DNA of 51,506 nucleotides from a virus: the IMG/VR virus record IMGVR_UViG_3300045988_081631, one strand, 5' to 3'. The notes beneath the pieces are model-generated. The model was not told the origin of the DNA. It did no database searches and worked only from the letters and a program-made list of their open reading frames with translations. Shown here piece after piece: positions 1,880-43,027 of this stretch. How positions within the stretch are numbered: position 1 is the first letter of the stretch; each line of letters begins with the position of its first letter. The position numbers and the translations under genes are program-made.

Positions 1880-3691
1880 TTAGGTTGTAGTCATAGACGC
1901 AATCGCGTCCTCAAGATTTTTGATCACGATGTTAACGTCCCGCTGGTAGTCCAACTTGATGCCAGCACCGTCACCAGCCTGCACCACCGTGTCAGGGCCG
2001 TAAGCGGTGAGGGCTTTGTAGGCGGCAATTTCGGCAGGAGTGAGTGGAGTTTCAACGGGGGTGGCAAGAATCACGCTTTGCTCAGCCAGCGTCTTGGTGG
2101 CATCGAAAGCACCTTTATCAACCCTCTGCACCTTCACCCCTCTCTCCAAGTCTATCTCGTCGCACACCCACTGCTGACCTGTGCTGTCAGTGTAGTTGCC
2201 GCCGGACGTGACAGGGATACCGGGCAGGCCGTTGGGCGTGGGCAGGGTGAAGAGCTGTTCACGGTAGGGGGAGTAGGCGGTGGCGGTTGTGCCAAGCTCA
2301 AGCTGGACTTTTACGCCAGTGAGATTGTATGTTTGTCCTTCAGTGACAATAAAAACTATTCTGGTTGCCATATCAGACATTTTATCGGCGGTATCTAAAG
2401 CAAGAATAACGTTCCATGTTGCTGATACAAGTTTTGCTTTTGGAGACGTGATGCTAGATGATAAAATCACCACACCGGATGCAATAAATGGTGGGATGTC
2501 TAACTTGGTGTAGCCAGAACTAGTTGCCGTTCCTGAAATCGATATTAACCCATCTTTTGCAGTAACCGTTACACCTCTAGCGGTCCCTGACCCGTCAGGA
2601 ATATTCAGCAGATTCCTCCCTGTCGCCTTCACCGCCACGTTCCCACTGTCCCCCGCACTCACAATCGGCGCCGGGTTATCCGGGCTGGGTGTGCCATCCT
2701 GCGTACTCCTGCCGTACACGGTCAGCCCGCACAGCGGCGCGGAAAAAGCGTCAGAGGCAGATACAGGATTGCCCGTTTCGGTGCCGATCAGGATATTCTG
2801 GCGCGCTTTGTCGGCCTTCTCAGCAACAGCCTTCTCGATTTCCGCCAGCCGCTTTCCCGTTGCGGCCGCGTCCGCCGCCTCCCCCTCCTGGGTCAGCGTC
2901 GCGTCGATGACAGCATCCTTGCCCGGTTCGCCTTTTGCGCCTTGCGGCCCTTGCGGCCCTTGCGGCCCTACCGCGCCTTCCGTTCCTTGCGGTCCGGTTG
3001 CACCCGTGTCACCCTTGGGGCCTCGCAGGCTTTCAAGCTGTTCGAGCGTAAAATCGCCAAAGGTAAACGCGTCTCCTTTTGCGCCCGTTTCGCCCTGCGG
3101 GCCGGTGTCTCCCTTCTCGCCCTTGTCGCCCTTGTCCCCTTTTTCGCCCTTGGGTCCCTGCGGGCCAATCGGGCCTGTTTCACCCCTGTCTCCCTGCGGG
3201 CCTTTCGGCCCTACAAAGTCGCCATTATCCAACCGCCGCTGTACTTCGTCCGCGACTGCCTGCGCGGCGTTTCCCGCCTGCTCAACGTCGGCCAGCGTGT
3301 CAGTCGCTTTGTCAATCCAATTTTTAACCGGATCTGGCGCTGGAGCAGTTGCGTCGCCAAGAGACTCGCTGACGCGCGTACAGGCAATCGCAGTCTTGAT
3401 GACCGTGCCATCCGCGTCTCGGATTGTGATTTGGGCTTGCCCGCTTCCGGCTTTATCGCCGATATCCGCGCTCGTGATCTCCCACGTCAGGATACCGTCC
3501 TCTTGTTTCACCACCGCCGGATACTCCGCCCGGCCAGGCTGCTTGACCGTGATCGACGCAATAGCATCCGGATACTGGCTCAATATGCTTTTTAGGTCGA
3601 CCAGTACCCGCGTCGCGCGATTTTCGCCGACACGGCCAAGCAGCAGCGCTTGATCGCCAAAACGGTCAAACGCCAGAATGATATCACGCAT
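1880..3691 (-). CDS. tail fibre / receptor-binding protein with a BppU-N-like N-terminus and two collagen-like Gly-X-Y tracts
   Basis: [47 protein letters not shown] and [36 protein letters not shown]. Start moved to ATG 3691 (RBS GAGGGAGAG), because the upstream gene ends at 3735. Confidence 0.85.
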
Positions 3692-25517: not shown

Positions 25518-25629
25518 CGAGCCGAAACAAGCCCCCCATGTGGGGGCTTGTCCGTCGGGAACAGCCGCCCGGCGCTGATGATGGCAGGCTAACACACTAC
25601 GACAGCCCAGACGGGCGGGAGGTTGCATC

Positions 25630-26712
25630 ATGTATCAAGAGACCAAAGCCGACACCCTGCGCATTTTGGCGCACGGACTCCGCGTCAACGGCGCAAAGAC
25701 GCTTGTGAAATGCTGGTACAGCATCGACGGCGACAAAACGCAAATCTATGCGCGCAGCTACTCCGACAAGCTCCCGCGCGACATCCTGCCCGTGCAGAAT
25801 GATACCGACATCATGACAGATTATTTTGACGAGGACAGCGCTACGCTTTCCGCCGAACATCCGCTCTATCCCTTCTTCCGCGCGGCGGCAATCCGGGAAA
25901 AGCTGGCATTTGCCAAAAAGCACCCGGCACATAACGCCACGATTGACAGCGCCCGCGCCGAAGAGGCCGCGCGCCTGTCCGCCGAGCTGGAGACGCTGCC
26001 GAGCGGTCAGCCCACCCCCGCAGACGTTGACCGCGCCCGCGCATACATGGACGCGCAGCGCAGAGCGGCGGCGGAAGCGGAAGAGCGCGCCCGCCGTGAA
26101 GAGTGGGAGCGCAGCGCAGAGGTGGAGCGGCAAAAAGAGCAGGACGCGCGCGAGACCATCGCCGCAGCTGTCGCGGCTTATCCGCTCAAGGACGGTGCGC
26201 CCTATGTCGTCATCAGATGGAGCGAGCACCCCGGCATTGATGAGGGCTTGGCGCTTTCCGTCGCCGCCGCTGATCTGGTGCTATCCCATCTTGACGAGGT
26301 GCAGCACGCGCGCCGCGTGAATGATGGGTTGCGTGGGTATGATAAGACGGCGTTTGTCGTCCACTACACCAAGGGCGGCGAGCCGCTGACCTTTGCCGAC
26401 CGCTACGACATCGGCGACGGTATCGGCGGACTGATCGAGGCTATCCGGCACTATGATAGCAATCTAGCCGAGATGCTGGAGGCATACGGCCCCGCCTTCA
26501 CCGCGCCCGCCGAGCAAGCGAGCACGGAAGCCGCCGGGCGTGTCCTGTCCTTTGCCGTCTGCAAGACCGCCCACGAGTATAAGCAGATGGACGCCGCCGC
26601 CGACAGTATAGCCGGGCTGCTGCTGGACATCCTCGGCGCTTCCGCGCCCCATCTGCCCACGCGACAGGCTACCCCGCAGCCATCCGGGCGCGTGCTTGCC
26701 TTCCACCGCTGA
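25630..26712 (+). CDS. hypothetical 360-aa protein, island gene 5. The C-terminal part resembles accessory domains seen on conjugative-element polyvalent proteins
   Basis: GGGAGG RBS. Central Arg/Glu/Ala coiled coil. C-terminal YVVIRWSEHPGIDEGLAL... The domain assignment is recollection only. Confidence 0.6.
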   Translation: MYQETKADTLRILAHGLRVNGAKTLVKCWYSIDGDKTQIYARSYSDKLPRDILPVQNDTDIMTDYFDEDSATLSAEHPLYPFFRAAAIREKLAFAKKHPAHNATIDSARAEEAARLSAELETLPSGQPTPADVDRARAYMDAQRRAAAEAEERARREEWERSAEVERQKEQDARETIAAAVAAYPLKDGAPYVVIRWSEHPGIDEGLALSVAAADLVLSHLDEVQHARRVNDGLRGYDKTAFVVHYTKGGEPLTFADRYDIGDGIGGLIEAIRHYDSNLAEMLEAYGPAFTAPAEQASTEAAGRVLSFAVCKTAHEYKQMDAAADSIAGLLLDILGASAPHLPTRQATPQPSGRVLAFHR

Positions 26713-35726: not shown

Positions 35727-36980
35727 TTAACCTCCTTGCATTTCCGCGAATCGCATCGTTGCGCCGTCAAAATACAGCGTAATCCTTCCGCATCGACCGC
35801 CCCGATTTTTGTCCAGAAACAGCTTCCTTTCCGGGTCGTCCTTGTCGTTCGGCGCATGCAGCAGGAGTACCGCGTCTGCGTCCTGCTCGATGCTGCCGGA
35901 TTCGCGGAGGTCTGACAGTTTCGGCTCGTCGTTTCGCTCGCTCGCGCGGTTGAGCTGTGAAGCGGTCAAAACCGGGATTTTTAGCTCCATCGCAAGCGCC
36001 TTTAGCCCTCTTGTGACAACTCCGACTGCTTCCGCGCGGTTGTTTGTCTTCTGCCCTGCGTCGAGTAGCTGCAAGTAATCAGCCACGATCAAATCAAGCC
36101 CGCCATGTGCCCGCGTCCTCAGCGCCATTCGGCGGATATCCTGCACGGTTCGCGCCCGTTCGCTGATGCAGAACCTCTCTGACGGGATTTCTGCAAAGCT
36201 GTCAGCGACTTTGATGATCTCGTCTTCCGTCAGGTTGTGGCGCTCGATTTTGTCTACCGAGACGCCGCTTTTCTGCGCCACAACACGCCCGACGACCTCG
36301 TCCGCGCCCATCTCGCAAGATACCAACAGGATTCTTCTGCCTGCGTCCAGCGCTCGAACGGCCATATGCAGCAGGAGCGCAGACTTGCCGACGGAAGGCC
36401 GTGCGCCGACAACAATCAGCTTCCCTCCCGCAATCAGCAAGGATTGATCGAGCTTCGGAAACCCTGTCTTTGCGATGGGTTCAACCGCTCCGCTCGTGAG
36501 TCGTGTATAAAAGCCGCAAAGCGCGTCTGTGCCGCTGATAATGTCTCCGTCGTCTGTTTGTCCGCCCAACTCGTTTAGACGCACCACCGCGCCGTTGAGC
36601 AGCTCCGACGTGGATATCTCACCATCGTTCGCGCTCTTGACTGTATCCAGGCACGTCTTGATAAGCGCTTTCCGCATTGCCGCTTCCCGGATGTTCCGTG
36701 CCTGCTGTTCGGCAAGCGCCGTTGTGACGGTTTCCGTGGCGACGACGATAGCCTGTTCAAGGTCGTCGTCAGAAATCACGCCTTCCAGCGTCGGGATATC
36801 GCATGGACGGCCTTGCCTCTCAAGCGCAAGCGCGGCCTCAAAAATTCGGCGGCAGAACGGGATTGTGAACCATTCGGCTTTAAGCCCGGAATCGCTTGCC
36901 TTTGTGTCGCCCTTGATGATTGCGCCGCAGAATTCGCGCTCAGAGATCTCTTTGGTGAGACTTTGGTACGGATCGTCCAT
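35727..36980 (-). CDS. dnaB: replicative DNA helicase (DnaB-like)
   Basis: Walker A GARPSVGKSAL; IVADYLQLL; SQLNR. Confidence 0.85.
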   Translation of the reverse strand: MDDPYQSLTKEISEREFCGAIIKGDTKASDSGLKAEWFTIPFCRRIFEAALALERQGRPCDIPTLEGVISDDDLEQAIVVATETVTTALAEQQARNIREAAMRKALIKTCLDTVKSANDGEISTSELLNGAVVRLNELGGQTDDGDIISGTDALCGFYTRLTSGAVEPIAKTGFPKLDQSLLIAGGKLIVVGARPSVGKSALLLHMAVRALDAGRRILLVSCEMGADEVVGRVVAQKSGVSVDKIERHNLTEDEIIKVADSFAEIPSERFCISERARTVQDIRRMALRTRAHGGLDLIVADYLQLLDAGQKTNNRAEAVGVVTRGLKALAMELKIPVLTASQLNRASERNDEPKLSDLRESGSIEQDADAVLLLHAPNDKDDPERKLFLDKNRGGRCGRITLYFDGATMRFAEMQGG

Positions 36981-37713
36981 AGCTCATTCCTCCCACGCTG
37001 TCAGGCGGCTTTTCCGCCCACGTGTATCCTCGCTCTTTCTCCTTGCGAAGAATGCCCTCGACATACCGCCAACATCGGCTTTTTTCTGTCACTCCTTGAG
37101 TTTTGTTTATGGCTTTCAGCAGATTTTCAGCTCCGTATCCAGCCCTGAGTCTGTCCATCGCGTCAAAGTCGCCCGAAGCACTGACAGGTAAGCCCATGCG
37201 CTTTGCAGCAGCCTCCACGTCTGCCTGTTCTTCCCGCATTCGCCGCGGTTCGTCGTCCGTCACGTCGTCGTAGGGGTTTGGGGTTACGTAACCACCACCA
37301 ATATTCTTTTCTTGTTCTTTTACTTGTTCTTGTTCTTGTATATACGCGTTTTGCTTGACGTTGCTTTCGTCTGCTTCCGGTTGCTTGGCTTTGCTTGGCT
37401 TTGCTTGGCTTTGCTTCAATGTGCTTGCGTTTGCTTCCGTTTGCTTGACGTTGCTTTCGTCTGCTTCCGGTTGCTTGGCGCATCCGCCTTTCTTCCCGCT
37501 TGCTTTCTTTGCTTCCAAGGATTCAGCGCACTGGTCGATTTTGAATTGAAGCGTGTCCCAGACATACCATTCCGGCGCGTTCTCGCCAAACGTCGGCAAC
37601 TCGCCACGGTAGGCATAGGCCATCATGGCCATAAAAAGCCGTCCGCGCTGTGCGTCATCATATCGCTTGAGAAGAACTTCGATGTCTGGGAAGACCTTCA
37701 GATAATCCAGCAT
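36940..37713 (-). CDS. replisome organiser / DnaD-like replication protein with a repetitive linker
   Basis: Lies upstream of the helicase. Linker with a KQ-x8 10-aa periodicity. ATG 37713 after AGGAGAAAGGAG. Confidence 0.6.
   Translation of the reverse strand: MLDYLKVFPDIEVLLKRYDDAQRGRLFMAMMAYAYRGELPTFGENAPEWYVWDTLQFKIDQCAESLEAKKASGKKGGCAKQPEADESNVKQTEANASTLKQSQAKPSKAKQPEADESNVKQNAYIQEQEQVKEQEKNIGGGYVTPNPYDDVTDDEPRRMREEQADVEAAAKRMGLPVSASGDFDAMDRLRAGYGAENLLKAINKTQGVTEKSRCWRYVEGILRKEKERGYTWAEKPPDSVGGMSYGRSVPKSHQRDL
37351..37479. repeat. TTGCTT motifs mostly at 10-bp spacing, including two exact 39-bp copies 90 bp apart; candidate origin iterons inside the replication gene
   Basis: ttgcttgacgttgctttcgtctgcttccggttgcttggc at 37351..37389 and 37441..37479; tandem tttgcttggc units between them. 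Confidence 0.8.
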
Positions 37714-37740
37714 CCTTTTTCTCCTTTCTCCTAAAATAAA

Positions 37741-37890
37741 TGGTGGCAAGCCCCGGAATCGAACCGGGCGACGCGGGCAAGGTGCTACGCGTTAAACCCA
37801 TGAAGCGAATATTGGAAGGGGGAAACCTTGATCCAGGAGGAATTTCGTCTGTCAAGAAGAAGCCCCGCGCCGATACCTGCTATGCTTGCC
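37741..37890 (-). ncRNA. non-canonical tRNA-like element (acceptor stem, T-arm and encoded CCA; the anticodon arm is replaced by an 8-bp helix plus an 86-nt insert)
   Basis: Minus strand GGCAAGC-AUAGCAGGUAUC-GGCGCGGG..86 nt..CCCGCGUC-G-CCCGG-UUCGAUU-CCGGG-GCUUGCC-A-CCA. Confidence 0.5.
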
Positions 37891-37946
37891 ATAAGTGCCG
37901 CCGTTTTGCCCCGGCGGCTAGGCTGTCTGTGAAACGTCTTTTATTT

Positions 37947-38145
37947 GCCGTCTTTCCGGCTGCCAGAAAAAATGGTGTGCGGTCTTTCCCGCCGTCAGAA
38001 TGTGAAAAAACAGTTTTGTCTTTCCGCCGTCTCTCCGGCTGTCAATTTTGTTGATCGTCTTTCCGATCTGTCGATGCTAAAGAACACGTCCCTTCGTCTT
38101 TCCGAAGCGCCAGAAATGAAATGTGCGGCGCCCGTCTTTCCGAGC
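37947..38145 (-). repeat. array of seven mini-hairpins with covarying stems and a conserved loop (GAAAGA on the minus strand)
   Basis: Plus strand gccg/tctttc/cggc, gcgg/tctttc/ccgc, (g/tctttc/c), gccg/tctctc/cggc, gatcg/tctttc/cgatc, cttcg/tctttc/cgaag, gcccg/tctttc/cgagc. Confidence 0.75.
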
Positions 38146-38356
38146 AGCCAGTATGATCATAATTTGCCCTTGCTCCGCCATCCTCCCTTCTGTTGGAGCT
38201 TTCACCGTTTCAAGCAGTTCCTTCGTGCTTGACTTACCCAAACTTCTTCTGCTCGGCGCGCGGCGGTATCGACCCGCCCCTTCTTCTTGGCGCTGCTTGC
38301 CGCCTTGAAGCTGCTCTCCTGAGCTGCGCACCATGCGCAAGGGTTTTAGCCCTTGC

Positions 38357-39022
38357 TTAATCCGGCTCACATTTCAACCCCAGCGTCTTACAAATTTCTT
38401 TCGTCGCCTTGATGGACTTAATGTGGTATCGTTCATCAAATTCTTCCTGCGCCATCGTGTGGCACTCCGTATGATGCACCCTGCAAAGCGGTTCGAGCGG
38501 CATACCCTCGTGGATGATAGTCTTTCGGTTCGCACCCATGCCAATCCGCGTCCAGTGGTGGATATCGGCTTTCTGGCCGCAGATGCAGCACTTTCGGCGC
38601 ATCAGGCAGGAATACATATACCTGTCAACGTCGTCGGCCAGAGAGGCCAGCGGAACGCGTGTCGGGATATCGTTGCGGAGAATGAAGTCAATTAAATAGG
38701 AAATAAATTCTTTGGCAGTTGTCACGTCGCAATCCGACAGGCTGAACAGCTCTCGTTGGAGCTGTTTGAGGTGGTTTGCAACAAAGTCATGCTTCATCAC
38801 GTCCTTGATTTCGCTCTGCTCGTAGCCGTAGAACTCGCCGATTTCCCGCATCAGCGCATAAGCCTTGCGGCGCTGCTCCGGGCTGATTCTTCGCCCGTCT
38901 GGCAAGCCAACCTGTACCTCGTTGTATTGGCGCTTGATGATCTTCTCAAGGTCTCCATACGGCACGAAGACCATCAAGCCGCCGTCAACCACGTCAACGA
39001 TCTTTCCCGGCGCTATTTCCAT
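38357..39022 (-). CDS. HNHc-type phage nuclease
   Basis: CCICGQKADIHHW.....LCRVHHTECH. Confidence 0.65.
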   Translation of the reverse strand: MEIAPGKIVDVVDGGLMVFVPYGDLEKIIKRQYNEVQVGLPDGRRISPEQRRKAYALMREIGEFYGYEQSEIKDVMKHDFVANHLKQLQRELFSLSDCDVTTAKEFISYLIDFILRNDIPTRVPLASLADDVDRYMYSCLMRRKCCICGQKADIHHWTRIGMGANRKTIIHEGMPLEPLCRVHHTECHTMAQEEFDERYHIKSIKATKEICKTLGLKCEPD

Positions 39023-39554
39023 TCGGATTCTCCTTCTGCCAGAGGAAAACGAGCTTCTTGTTCTTGGAGTTTCGGATTGCAAGCCCTACGATATTTCGCT
39101 GTTCATCGTCATAAGCGATTTTCTGCACCTCAAACTTGTCGTAGGTCATCGCCTTGCCGTTTTTGTTTGGCTTGATTTCCACTTTTTCAGCGGGAATCCA
39201 GATAAACGGCGCTGTGTAAAGCTCTCGACCGATGCCCCAGTTGACGCAGGCGCGCTTGAAACTGTCAGATGCAAGCCCCTTCGCGGCTTCCGTGTTGCTC
39301 TCTGTGCCCGTGTCCTCCTTCTCAATCCACGTCTTTTTGTCTGCGTCAAAGATGGAGACAATGCAGTTTGCGTTATCCCTGTCGTGGCGACGCGACCAGT
39401 TGAACGAGCCGACTGTCTCATCAAGGATATCCATATCGCACCGCGCGTTCTTGTAAAGCAGGAGCTGACAGCCCTTTTCGCTGATCTGCGCAACCCGCAC
39501 GTCAATTTCGGACGCTTCCAGCGGTCGGAACATCCGCTTTTTCTTCTCGTCCAT
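38994..39554 (-). CDS. Rad52/Sak-like single-strand annealing protein
   Basis: LLLYKNARCDMDILDETVG...KGLASDSFKRACVNWGIGRELY. Confidence 0.7.
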   Translation of the reverse strand: MDEKKKRMFRPLEASEIDVRVAQISEKGCQLLLYKNARCDMDILDETVGSFNWSRRHDRDNANCIVSIFDADKKTWIEKEDTGTESNTEAAKGLASDSFKRACVNWGIGRELYTAPFIWIPAEKVEIKPNKNGKAMTYDKFEVQKIAYDDEQRNIVGLAIRNSKNKKLVFLWQKENPNGNSAGKDR

Positions 39555-42504: not shown

Positions 42505-42580
42505 CATGTTTTTGCAAATTTATGTTGACTGTGTTGGAATTATTTTTAGAAACTGAATCTCTAGGAATACAAAAAACATG

Positions 42581-42609
42581 TTGACTGTGTTAGCATGTTG
42601 TGTTATAAT
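42581..42609 (+). promoter_or_regulatory. repressor gene promoter
   Basis: TTGACT-17-TATAAT; the ATG is 26 nt downstream. Confidence 0.8.
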
Positions 42610-42634
42610 GATTGCGTCAAAGAGAGGTGAAAAC

Positions 42635-43027
42635 ATGAAAGACAGGATTAAAGAAATCCGTAATTTATATGGAATGACACAGGCTGAATTTTCCGAAAAG
42701 CTAGGCGTTTCAAGGAATTATACAAGCCTTCTCGAATCCGGCGACCGCGTTCCTTCCGAACAGCTCGTTAAGTCGATTTGCCGTGAGTTTAACATCCGTT
42801 ATGACTGGTTGGTAAACGGCGAAGAACCGATGATGATTCCGCAAGACAAGTATGATGAGCTGATTCAGACGATTCTTCATAATAAGTCGGAGTTCATGCG
42901 GTCGGCAGTCATGACCATCTCCCGCATCCCCGGCGGTTGGGAAGCGCTTGAACAGGTCGTAACGCAGGTCTACGAGGATTGGCAGAAAGAGCTGAAAGCC
43001 CAAAACGAAAAAAAGCCGGACGAATAA
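42635..43027 (+). CDS. cI-like XRE-family repressor
   Basis: IKEIRNLYGMTQAEFSEKLGVSRNYTSLLESG; divergent from the early operon. Confidence 0.8.
   Translation: MKDRIKEIRNLYGMTQAEFSEKLGVSRNYTSLLESGDRVPSEQLVKSICREFNIRYDWLVNGEEPMMIPQDKYDELIQTILHNKSEFMRSAVMTISRIPGGWEALEQVVTQVYEDWQKELKAQNEKKPDE

What the first reader, a model, noticed from the sequence alone, without database searches (positions are those of the whole stretch)
37741..37890. Non-canonical 150-nt tRNA-like element with encoded CCA, resembling a tmRNA tRNA-like domain
On the minus strand there is a 7-bp acceptor stem (GGCAAGC / GCUUGCC), discriminator A and an encoded CCA. A canonical T-arm (CCCGG-UUCGAUU-CCGGG) is also present. There is no D-arm or anticodon arm. 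Instead, a 12-nt single-stranded segment leads into an 8-bp helix (GGCGCGGG / CCCGCGUC, with one G.U that pairs only in minus-strand RNA). This helix abuts the T-arm and encloses 86 nt, including a hairpin at 37813..37835. This is the topology of a tmRNA TLD, but the RNA is far shorter, lacks the G3.U70 alanine identity pair and has no obvious tag ORF (the best frame ends ..FASWV-UAA). It ends 27 nt upstream of the replication-gene ATG and is followed by UUUAUUUU. It is not next to the integrase, so it is not a simple attP tRNA fragment.
Basis: partly seen in the sequence, partly recalled or inferred. Interest (0 to 1): 0.8.

Follow-up and report, generated by a model that had tools for sequence, protein, structure and literature searches.

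The report
Phage tRNA-like RNA processing element
A family of human-gut phages carries a conserved 150-base RNA that copies only the "top half" of a tRNA; it is neither a tRNA nor a tmRNA, and it most likely acts as a cutting signal that releases a neighbouring hairpin-rich non-coding RNA from the phage's early transcript.

Summary
On the minus strand, 37741-37890 has a 7-bp acceptor stem, a canonical T-arm directly stacked on it, discriminator A and CCA. It has no D-arm or anticodon arm. An 11-nt strand with an invariant GG leads into a 9-bp helix that encloses 86 nt. ARAGORN and Rfam call nothing. About 100 related gut-phage contigs carry the element (53 distinct sequences), with compensatory changes in the acceptor stem and inner helix and tRNA-like variation in the T-loop.

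The tmRNA reading fails. There is no G3.U70 and no conserved reading frame, and CCA is encoded in only about 45% of copies. The attP reading also fails, because no representative genome matches.

The element is one part of a 650-nt non-coding stretch (37714-38356). A second, cloverleaf tRNA-like element lies upstream at 38251-38332. Each of the two is preceded by a covarying hairpin. Between them lie six small hairpins with the constant loop GGAAAGAC. The same hairpin motif occurs in unrelated phages, in some next to other tRNA-like elements or real tRNAs.

Best explanation (inferred, about 0.45): the two elements are RNase P / RNase Z punctuation signals. This would be a new variant of a known kind.

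The parts
37741..37890 (-). TLE-2, the reported element. Acceptor 37890-37884 / 37751-37745; joining strand with invariant A-G-G 37883-37873; inner helix P2 37872-37864 / 37777-37769; variable CU-rich interior 37863-37778, whose 3' end carries the conserved UURACGCGAAGCACCUUG; T-arm 37768-37752; discriminator 37744; CCA 37743-37741.
37891..37918 (-). Hairpin H2 (GCCGCCG-GGGCAAAA-CGGCGGC, 37918-37897) plus the 6-nt leader ACUUAU. The stem covaries in relatives (GCCGCUGG/CCAGCGGC, GCUGGCGG/CCGUCAGC). N-1 is U in nearly all copies.
37947..38146 (-). Array of six small hairpins with the constant loop G-GA(A/G)AGA-C and different stems, each preceded by UGRCR: 38129-38146, 38092-38107, 38053-38068, 38026-38039, 37979-37992, 37947-37960.
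38251..38332 (-). TLE-1, a second tRNA-like element with a cloverleaf fold. Acceptor GGUGCGC/GCGCGCC (7 bp); D-arm GCUC-AGGA-GAGC; extended 'anticodon' arm with conserved AGCAG-type loop; T-arm GGCGG-GUCGAUA-CCGCC; discriminator G; no CCA.
38333..38356 (-). Hairpin H1 (GCAAGGG-CUAAAA-CCCUUGC, 38356-38337) plus the 4-nt leader GCAU. It lies directly after the stop codon of the upstream HNHc_6 gene, and its stem covaries.
36940..37713 (-). Downstream gene: DUF6291 / replication-initiator-like protein. ATG at 37713, 27 nt after TLE-2, behind a purine-rich Shine-Dalgarno region. Tandem 10/20/30-bp repeats at 37304-37477 are the likelier origin iterons.

Best explanation
TLE-2 is an RNA-level mimic of the tRNA 'top half': a 12-bp acceptor/T coaxial stack plus the GG/T-loop elbow. 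It is embedded in the early (recombination-replication) transcript of a temperate gut siphophage.

Together with the upstream cloverleaf TLE-1 it works as punctuation. Host RNase P would cut at the 5' side of each element, after U-1. Host RNase Z or 3' exonucleases would cut or trim after the discriminator, and the CCA-adding enzyme would add CCA where it is not encoded.

These cuts would have four effects:
- They end the upstream mRNA just after hairpin H1.
- They release the intervening RNA that carries the GGAAAGAC hairpin array, with H2 as its 3' protective hairpin.
- They release two stable tRNA-like RNAs.
- They leave the replication-initiator mRNA with a short leader of about 27 nt that starts at a strong ribosome-binding site.

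Shown: the structure, its conservation and covariation, the paired architecture, and recurrence of the architecture elsewhere. Inferred: transcription as one RNA, the cleavages, and any role of the released RNAs.
For: 1. All features that tRNA-end-processing enzymes read are kept, and those needed for decoding are absent.
   - The 7+5 bp stack is contiguous in TLE-2 and in TLE-1.
   - The T-loop varies only at positions 57, 59 and 60 (UUCGAUU, UUCAAUU, UUCGAAU, UUCAAAU, UUCGACU).
   - A-G-G in the joining strand is invariant.
   - N-1 is U and C74 is kept in all copies.
2. Covariation supports the folds.
   - TLE-2: 95% of cells are paired and 5 pairs change on both sides. Two are in the acceptor (GGCAGAC/GUCUGCC lineage) and three in P2 (L033). 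0 of 500 shuffles reach the observed score, and slid controls drop to 33-50% paired.
   - TLE-1: RNAalifold predicts a cloverleaf, with 8 of 27 pairs compensatory. The single-sequence fold has z = -4.7.
3. The scaffold stays 81-89% identical while the adjacent rep gene falls to about 30% amino-acid identity. The interior is replaced wholesale, giving four types.
4. Each TLE has a covarying hairpin 4-6 nt upstream. H1 directly follows the upstream stop codon.
5. The stretch is non-coding.
   - Reading frames are not conserved.
   - Gene callers leave gaps of about 480-630 nt.
   - There are no Pfam or PHROG hits.
   - No promoter or terminator separates it from the flanking same-strand genes, apart from one weak promoter-like site.
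6. The architecture recurs in sequence-unrelated phage contigs.
   - In L148, L152 and L173 the last GGAAAGAC hairpin is followed, after ACACU, by a different non-canonical tRNA-like element whose T-stem covaries.
   - L184 has a 57-nt mini tRNA-like element upstream of its array.
   - In L157 the hairpins lie between genuine tRNA-His and tRNA-Ile, and the second ends 6 nt before tRNA-Ile.
7. From established knowledge, not tested here: bacterial RNase P and RNase Z recognise the acceptor/T minihelix and elbow, and RNase P prefers U at -1.
Against: - There is no expression or end-mapping data, so cleavage is wholly inferred.
- The compensatory changes come from only two lineages. The model's effective sequence number is 1.6.
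- 21 of 34 aligned copies have a C.A mismatch in P2. In those copies the minimum-energy fold drops P2 in favour of a local hairpin.
- A pure processing signal does not explain two features: the 86-nt CU-rich interior that is always retained, and the invariant UURACGCGAAGCACCUUG segment.
- Most GGAAAGAC arrays in other phages have no tRNA or tRNA-like neighbour. The coupling is therefore optional.
- A hairpin ending only 4-6 nt before the cleavage site may hinder binding of the leader by the RNase P protein.
Confidence: 0.45

Rival explanations
1. TLE-2 is a tRNA-scaffolded trans-acting RNA or decoy. In this view the tRNA-like ends exist mainly to give a stable, correctly trimmed RNA. The payload is the CU-rich interior (CCUCC/UUCC motifs) or the tRNA shape itself. 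It would pair with purine-rich ribosome-binding sites or with the GGAA hairpin loops, or it would soak up a host tRNA-binding or tRNA-cleaving factor.
For: - The interior is always present and pyrimidine-rich in all four types, and an invariant 18-nt segment is kept.
- The topology matches that of engineered tRNA scaffolds, in which an insert replaces the anticodon arm (own knowledge).
- The scaffold is far more conserved than the neighbouring genes.
Against: - Interior sequences are unalignable between types, at 51-59% identity.
- Pairing with the element's own rep ribosome-binding site is no better than shuffles, and ranks 31st of 38 phage ribosome-binding sites.
- The second family (L148, L152, L173) has no CU-rich interior.
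- No target could be identified.
Confidence: 0.2
2. TLE-2 is a cis-regulatory leader of the replication-initiator gene. The fold, or a factor bound to it (uncharged-tRNA-binding proteins, RNase P, the ribosome), would tune translation or stability of the rep mRNA without releasing a functional RNA.
For: - The element always lies 27-40 nt upstream of a DUF6291-type rep gene, in two divergent rep variants.
- An unusually long purine-rich Shine-Dalgarno region follows it.
Against: - There is no alternative pairing between the element and the ribosome-binding site beyond chance.
- Ribosome-binding-site types and interior types reassort freely.
- This view does not explain TLE-1, the upstream hairpins or the same architecture next to real tRNAs.
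- L032 has the rep gene without the element.
Confidence: 0.12
3. The region is a DNA-level replication structure. Hairpins and cloverleaf-like folds would form in single-stranded DNA as priming or initiator-binding signals next to the rep and DnaB genes.
For: - The position is upstream of the initiator and DnaB genes.
- The repeated hairpins resemble iterons, and their copy number varies from 1 to 7.
- GCGAAGC within the conserved segment is a known stable DNA mini-hairpin sequence (own knowledge).
Against: - Classical tandem iterons lie inside the rep gene itself, at 37304-37477 (similar repeats in the other rep variant).
- The T-loop follows the RNA tRNA consensus.
- G.U pairs are tolerated in the gene-sense strand in TLE-1 and in the hairpin stems.
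- The same hairpin motif also lies upstream of scaffold-like genes and between tRNA genes.
Confidence: 0.08
4. TLE-2 is a charged, tmRNA-like or otherwise aminoacylated tRNA-like domain. It would enter ribosomes or donate an amino acid, as a tRNA-like-domain-only analogue of tmRNA.
For: - The topology equals that of a tmRNA tRNA-like domain.
- This copy encodes ACCA.
- Reduced tmRNAs consisting of the tRNA-like domain only exist in jakobid mitochondria (PMC3590771 abstract).
Against: - C3-G70 replaces G3.U70 in every copy.
- The discriminator varies among A, G, U and C, which argues against a fixed synthetase identity.
- There is no conserved open frame.
- ARAGORN and Rfam find no tmRNA.
Confidence: 0.05
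5. TLE-2 is a decaying tRNA gene or integration-site remnant with no present function.
For: tRNA fragments are common in prophages (10.1101/2022.07.05.498093, abstract).
Against: - Both acceptor strands are kept and covary.
- The scaffold is more conserved than the neighbouring protein gene.
- No host tRNA shares the 3' half.
- The element is 8 kb from the integrase.
Confidence: 0.04

Closest known systems
tmRNA tRNA-like domain (TLD)
   Same: Both have a 7-bp acceptor, a canonical T-arm stacked on it, a D-arm replaced by a single strand that keeps GG, and a long helix abutting the T-arm that encloses the rest of the RNA (own knowledge of tmRNA).
   Different: The element lacks G3.U70, a tag reading frame and detectable pseudoknots, and is 128-161 nt rather than about 260-400 nt. 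ARAGORN and Rfam tmRNA models do not find it.
mascRNA-type tRNA-like 3'-end processing elements of MALAT1 / MEN-beta (10.64898/2026.01.19.700226 for mascRNA; mechanism from own knowledge)
   Same: A tRNA-like element inside a longer transcript is cut by RNase P. The upstream RNA is left with a protective structure at its new 3' end, and the small tRNA-like RNA gets CCA but does not decode. H1 and H2 would play the role of the protective structure.
   Different: mascRNA is eukaryotic and nuclear, a 58-nt cloverleaf, and the protective structure is a triple helix. Here the setting is a bacterial phage, the elements come as a pair, and one lacks D and anticodon arms and carries an 86-nt insert.
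Murine gammaherpesvirus 68 tRNA-like/miRNA transcripts and engineered polycistronic tRNA-guide arrays (own knowledge)
   Same: A virus links tRNA-like elements to small hairpin RNAs so that host tRNA-processing enzymes separate them. The tRNA-like parts are not aminoacylated.
   Different: The gammaherpesvirus transcripts are made by RNA polymerase III with the tRNA-like part first, and the hairpins are miRNA precursors. Here the hairpins have a constant loop, and the elements lie in a bacterial operon.
Plant mitochondrial t-elements, and RNase P cleavage of bacterial operon mRNAs and of the phage P1/P7 C4 RNA precursor (own knowledge)
   Same: Acceptor/T-like mimics or minimal RNase P substrates define mRNA or small-RNA ends within polycistronic transcripts. 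C4 is cut out of the leader of the phage operon it controls.
   Different: C4 acts by antisense pairing to its own operon's ribosome-binding site. That pairing was tested here and is not better than chance. There is no sequence similarity and no Rfam C4 match.
Phage T4 RNAC and RNAD
   Same: These are small stable phage RNAs of unknown role, transcribed from the tRNA region (PMC3014915, PMC9697503).
   Different: They belong to a different phage type and a different genomic context.

Membership tests
tmRNA | tRNA-like domain: acceptor stem plus T-arm, no D-stem, helix 2 abutting the T-arm | tested here: met
tmRNA | G3.U70 alanine identity pair | tested here: not met
   C3-G70 in all 53 distinct copies
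tmRNA | mRNA-like domain with resume codon, conserved tag frame and stop | tested here: not met
   The frame is not conserved. Spacing to the UAA/UGA varies by 35/36/37 nt within one interior type, and the peptides are unrelated.
tmRNA | Recognition by ARAGORN tmRNA mode and by Rfam tmRNA models | tested here: not met
tmRNA | Pseudoknots PK1-PK4 | tested here: inconclusive
   The folding tools used do not predict pseudoknots. The RNA is too short for four, and a possible UUCGUC/GACGCGAA crossing pairing was seen by eye only.
tmRNA | SmpB binding and alanylation | not testable with these tools
   Needs biochemistry.
canonical tRNA | Cloverleaf with D-arm and a 5-bp anticodon stem with a 7-nt loop | tested here: not met
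   TLE-2 has neither arm. TLE-1 has a D-arm but an extended, non-canonical anticodon arm.
canonical tRNA | Detection by ARAGORN and by the Rfam tRNA clan | tested here: not met
   ARAGORN finds 0 genes. The best Rfam match is tRNA-Sec at 14.4 bits against a 47-bit gathering score, E = 4.1.
canonical tRNA | 7-bp acceptor contiguous with a 5-bp T-stem; T-loop U54 U55 C56 R57 A58 | tested here: met
tRNA-like processing (punctuation) elements: mascRNA, t-element and viral tRNA-like class | Acceptor/T minihelix plus elbow, without decoding features, inside a longer same-strand transcript unit | tested here: met
tRNA-like processing (punctuation) elements: mascRNA, t-element and viral tRNA-like class | Protective structure at the end of the upstream product | tested here: met
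   Covarying hairpins H1 and H2 end 4-6 nt before +1. The same spacing is seen in L152 and before tRNA-Ile in L157.
tRNA-like processing (punctuation) elements: mascRNA, t-element and viral tRNA-like class | Actual cleavage by RNase P / RNase Z and CCA addition | not testable with these tools
   Needs end mapping or in-vitro cleavage.
attP / tRNA gene fragment | 3' part identical to a host tRNA or tmRNA gene, next to the integrase | tested here: not met
   No exact match in 185,579 representative genomes. The integrase is at 45735-47015. The 5' strand is present and covaries.
Any Rfam 15 family (GOLLD, ROOL, C4, GP20-a/b, RAGATH and others) | Score at or above the gathering threshold | tested here: not met
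   RAGATH-36 scores only 18 bits against a 70-bit threshold.

The most novel reading that the evidence does not exclude
The two tRNA-like elements and the UGRCR-N4-GGAAAGAC-N4' hairpin array together form an undescribed phage non-coding RNA system. In it, a multi-hairpin RNA is cut out of an operon by host tRNA-processing enzymes. Its constant loops would bind, and titrate or recruit, a conserved host or phage factor at the start of replication and head-assembly gene blocks. The hairpin motif is found in at least 25 unrelated viral contigs and in no Rfam family.
Probability: 0.3. Interest if true: 0.8.

Novelty: new variant of a known kind. Interest (0 to 1): 0.65.

Why it matters
tRNA mimicry as a processing device is known from eukaryotic nuclei, organelles and a herpesvirus. 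For DNA phages it is known only as isolated RNase P substrates. A conserved pair of tRNA-like elements bracketing a hairpin-array RNA would show three things:
- Phages use "tRNA punctuation" to make small RNAs from inside operons.
- There exists a natural counterpart of the tRNA scaffolds and tRNA-guide arrays used in biotechnology.
- A widespread, uncatalogued hairpin motif has an unknown binding partner that could now be sought.

The finding also warns annotators that such elements escape ARAGORN and Rfam, and that spurious ORFs are called over them (for example 38077-38370).

Tried and rejected
- Standard tRNA, tRNA with an intron, or tmRNA. ARAGORN and Rfam are negative.
- Tag peptide. No reading frame is conserved.
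- attP or host tRNA copy. Two genome-collection scans found nothing.
- C4-like antisense pairing of the CU-rich interior with its own rep ribosome-binding site. The duplex is -14 kcal/mol. That is weaker than the mean of shuffles (-15.9) and ranks 31st of 38 phage ribosome-binding sites.
- Intrinsic terminator formed by the U-run. None is predicted, and the run is not conserved.
- The 97-aa ORF 38077-38370 as a real gene. It has no family hits, is not conserved as a frame, and is not called in relatives.
- Upstream hairpins as double-stranded DNA iterons of the origin. The stems covary while the loop is constant, and true tandem repeats lie inside rep.
- L154, an apparent hairpin array. It is a different thing: constant stems, variable loops, upstream of a primase-like gene.
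- GP20-a/b or any Rfam family for the hairpin arrays. No match.
- Nearest cultured phages. There is no DNA or rep-protein match in 50,697 phage records. The terminase is at most 41% identical to Clostridium and gut phages. The host therefore remains unknown.
- Literature searches found no description of this element. One survey of viral structured RNAs could include it, but its supplements were not available.
- Wider membership of the second tRNA-like family. Only three contigs were found.

Full report
**1. The observation**

On the minus strand, 37890-37741 reads as follows:

GGCAAGC-AUAGCAGGUAU-CGGCGCGGG-(86 nt)-CCCGCGUCG-CCCGG-UUCGAUU-CCGGG-GCUUGCC-A-CCA

- The 3' T-stem strand runs straight into the 3' acceptor strand, as in tRNA.
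- In this copy the inner helix (P2) is 9 bp with one G.U. It leaves an 11-nt joining strand and no linker before the T-stem.
- RNAfold returns this topology, but the overall energy is unremarkable (z = -1.08).
- ARAGORN finds no tRNA or tmRNA in the whole window.
- At curated thresholds Rfam finds only an unrelated type II hammerhead at 25520-25593.
- A permissive Rfam scan of the site gives only noise: tRNA-Sec at 14 bits and RAGATH-36 at 18 bits.
- A T-arm plus a fully paired 7-nt acceptor plus CCA appears in 0.5% of 200 dinucleotide-preserving shuffles of the window. A T-arm with some 7/7 partner appears in 37% of shuffles. The single-sequence evidence is therefore suggestive only.

**2. 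Context**

The window is a temperate siphophage-like genome.

- The integrase is at 45735-47015 and a CI-like repressor at 42578-43027.
- Early genes lie on the minus strand: Gam-like, Erf-like and an HNHc_6 nuclease at 38357-39082.
- Then comes the stretch in question.
- It is followed by a DUF6291 / replication-initiator-like gene (36940-37713), DnaB (35727-36980) and a Bro-N/KilAC antirepressor.
- No cultured phage is close.

**3. Relatives**

- The DUF6291 protein found 33 IMG/VR loci. A DNA pattern from the element found 43 metagenome contigs, nearly all from human gut and about 40-47 kb long.
- Further loci came from other searches.
- About 100 loci carry the element, in 53 distinct sequences of 128-161 nt.
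- The interior falls into four mutually unalignable types. All are pyrimidine-rich, and all end in the invariant UURACGCGAAGCACCUUG.
- The 5' 27 nt and 3' 58 nt stay 81-89% identical to the window copy even where the neighbouring rep gene has dropped to about 30% amino-acid identity.
- Interior type, ribosome-binding-site type and rep type reassort freely.

**4. Structure support**

On a 34-sequence alignment, 95% of cells form standard pairs. The slid controls give 33-50%.

- Five pairs change on both sides. A5-U and G6-C become G-C and A-U in the GGCAGAC/GUCUGCC lineage. Three P2 pairs change in L033.
- No shuffle out of 500 reaches the observed covariation score.
- These changes come from only two lineages, and the effective sequence number is 1.6. 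The support is real but thin.
- The T-loop changes only at positions 57, 59 and 60. A13-G14-G15 in the joining strand are invariant. This is the pattern expected if the tRNA elbow (G18-G19 with U55-C56) is kept.
- P2 carries a C.A mismatch in 21 of 34 copies. In those copies the minimum-energy fold prefers a local hairpin.

**5. What it is not**

- It is not tmRNA. Position 3-70 is C-G in every copy.
- Encoded CCA is not conserved. About 45% of copies have NCCA. The others have ACAA or CCAU. The discriminator is A, G, U or C.
- It is not an attP piece or a recent tRNA copy. Two scans of 185,579 representative genomes found neither the element nor any tRNA with its T-arm plus 3' acceptor strand.
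- The CU-rich interior does not pair with its own ribosome-binding site better than chance.

**6. What surrounds it**

The 650 nt between the HNH stop codon and the rep ATG are non-coding. Frames are not conserved, gene callers leave the gap empty in relatives, and the 97-aa ORF has no family hits.

The stretch holds a second tRNA-like element at 38251-38332.

- It forms a clean cloverleaf: a 7-bp acceptor, the D-arm GCUC-AGGA-GAGC, an extended third arm with a conserved AGCAG-type loop, and the T-arm GGCGG-GUCGAUA-CCGCC.
- Its fold has z = -4.7 and takes 72% of the ensemble.
- RNAalifold predicts the same fold independently. 8 of 27 pairs show compensatory change, including acceptor GGCGCGC/GCGCGCC to GGCGGUC/GACCGCC and T-stem GGCGG/CCGCC to GGUGG/CCACC.
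- It has many G.U pairs in the gene-sense strand, which points to RNA of that sense.

Each element is preceded, 4-6 nt upstream, by a covarying hairpin, H1 or H2. The base before +1 is almost always U.

Between the two elements lie six small hairpins at 37947-38146.

- Each has the constant loop G-GA(A/G)AGA-C, a different stem and a preceding UGRCR.
- The stems show compensatory and G.U variants.
- This part folds far better than shuffles (z = -4.25).

Classical tandem repeats lie inside the rep gene at 37304-37477. They are the likelier origin iterons.

**7. The same architecture elsewhere**

- A scan for two neighbouring hairpin loops found the unit UGRCR-N4-GGAAAGAC-N4' in about 25 unrelated viral contigs. 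N4 and N4' are complementary, and there are 69 distinct copies. None matches an Rfam family.
- The arrays lie upstream of replication-initiator-like genes (L184; L186 with a DnaB_2 domain) or of scaffold-like genes (L113, L119, L140 and others).
- In L148, L152 and L173 the last hairpin is followed, after ACACU, by a different non-canonical tRNA-like element: GGGGAGU ... T-arm ... ACUCCCC-A. Its T-stem covaries (GAGGG, AGGGG, GAUGG).
- L184 has a 57-nt acceptor/T mini-element upstream of its array.
- In L157 two hairpins lie between genuine tRNA-His and tRNA-Ile, and the second ends 6 nt before tRNA-Ile.
- Most arrays have no tRNA neighbour.

**8. Interpretation**

The conserved features are exactly those read by enzymes that handle tRNA ends: the 12-bp acceptor/T stack, the elbow, U-1 and C74. 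Decoding features are absent.

Two such elements bracket a distinct structured RNA, and each has a hairpin placed where the upstream cleavage product would end. In other phages a real tRNA, or a different mimic, occupies the same place.

The most economical reading is punctuation. RNase P and RNase Z (or exonucleases plus the CCA-adding enzyme) would cut the early transcript at both elements. This would release the hairpin-array RNA and leave the rep mRNA with a short leader. This step is inference, because no expression data were available.

The retained interior and its invariant 3' segment suggest that TLE-2 may also carry a function of its own, which I could not identify.

The closest analogues are mascRNA-type elements, herpesviral tRNA-like/miRNA transcripts, plant mitochondrial t-elements and the RNase P-processed C4 RNA of phage P1. 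These comparisons rest on my own knowledge.

I file the element as a new variant of the tRNA-like processing element. It is not a member of the tRNA or tmRNA families.

Noticed in passing
window 38251-38332 (-), with hairpin H1 at 38337-38356: A second, cloverleaf-shaped tRNA-like element that ARAGORN and Rfam do not call. It is conserved with 8 compensatory pairs, and it overlaps a spurious 97-aa ORF (38077-38370).
   Followed up: yes
window 37947-38146 (-); also L111-L190, e.g. L152 168-350, L184, L113, L119, L140: The repeated unit UGRCR-N4-GGAAAGAC-N4' is a hairpin with a constant loop and covarying stem. It is present as arrays of 1-7 copies in this family and in about 25 unrelated viral contigs, upstream of replication-initiator-like or scaffold-like genes. 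It has no Rfam match, and its binding partner and function are unknown.
   Followed up: partly
L148 (- strand, about 145-267 of the reverse complement), L152 349-475, L173 about 2490-2580, L184 (- strand, about 3047-3103 of the reverse complement): Other non-canonical tRNA-like elements (acceptor plus T-arm, odd interiors) lie next to GGAAAGAC hairpin arrays in sequence-unrelated phage contigs. ARAGORN calls none of them.
   Followed up: partly
L157 2890-3234: In a phage tRNA cluster, two GGAAAGAC hairpins lie between tRNA-His and tRNA-Ile. The second ends 6 nt before the tRNA-Ile 5' end, the same spacing as H2 before TLE-2.
   Followed up: partly
window 25520-25593 (+): A type II hammerhead ribozyme (Rfam RF02276, 50.5 bits, E = 1.6e-07) lies on the strand opposite most phage genes, just upstream of a + strand ORF (25630-26712) with an LPD25 domain.
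   Followed up: no
window 37304-37477, inside the rep gene; similar repeats in the other rep variant (L084, L085, L092, L101, L105): Tandem 10/20/30-bp repeats (TTGCTTCCG-like) lie inside the DUF6291 replication-initiator gene. They are probably the origin iterons.
   Followed up: partly
window 38265-38289 versus 37853-37877 (-): A 25-nt stretch of TLE-1 (third arm and 5' T-stem) is 80% complementary to the joining strand, the P2 5' strand and the start of the interior of TLE-2. The predicted duplex is about -45 kcal/mol. It is seen only in loci with the window's interior type (A). It may reflect long-range pairing or an old inverted duplication.
   Followed up: partly
L154 about 3090-3500: An array of GTGTCGG-NNNN-ACGACTGA units has constant stems and variable loops, the opposite pattern to the hairpin motif. 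It lies upstream of a primase-like gene and looks like true double-stranded DNA iterons. It matched the search pattern only by chance.
   Followed up: partly
L032 (rep homologue, 56% identity): This relative has the rep gene directly after the upstream gene, with no non-coding module. The whole tRNA-like/hairpin cassette is therefore dispensable or replaceable.
   Followed up: partly
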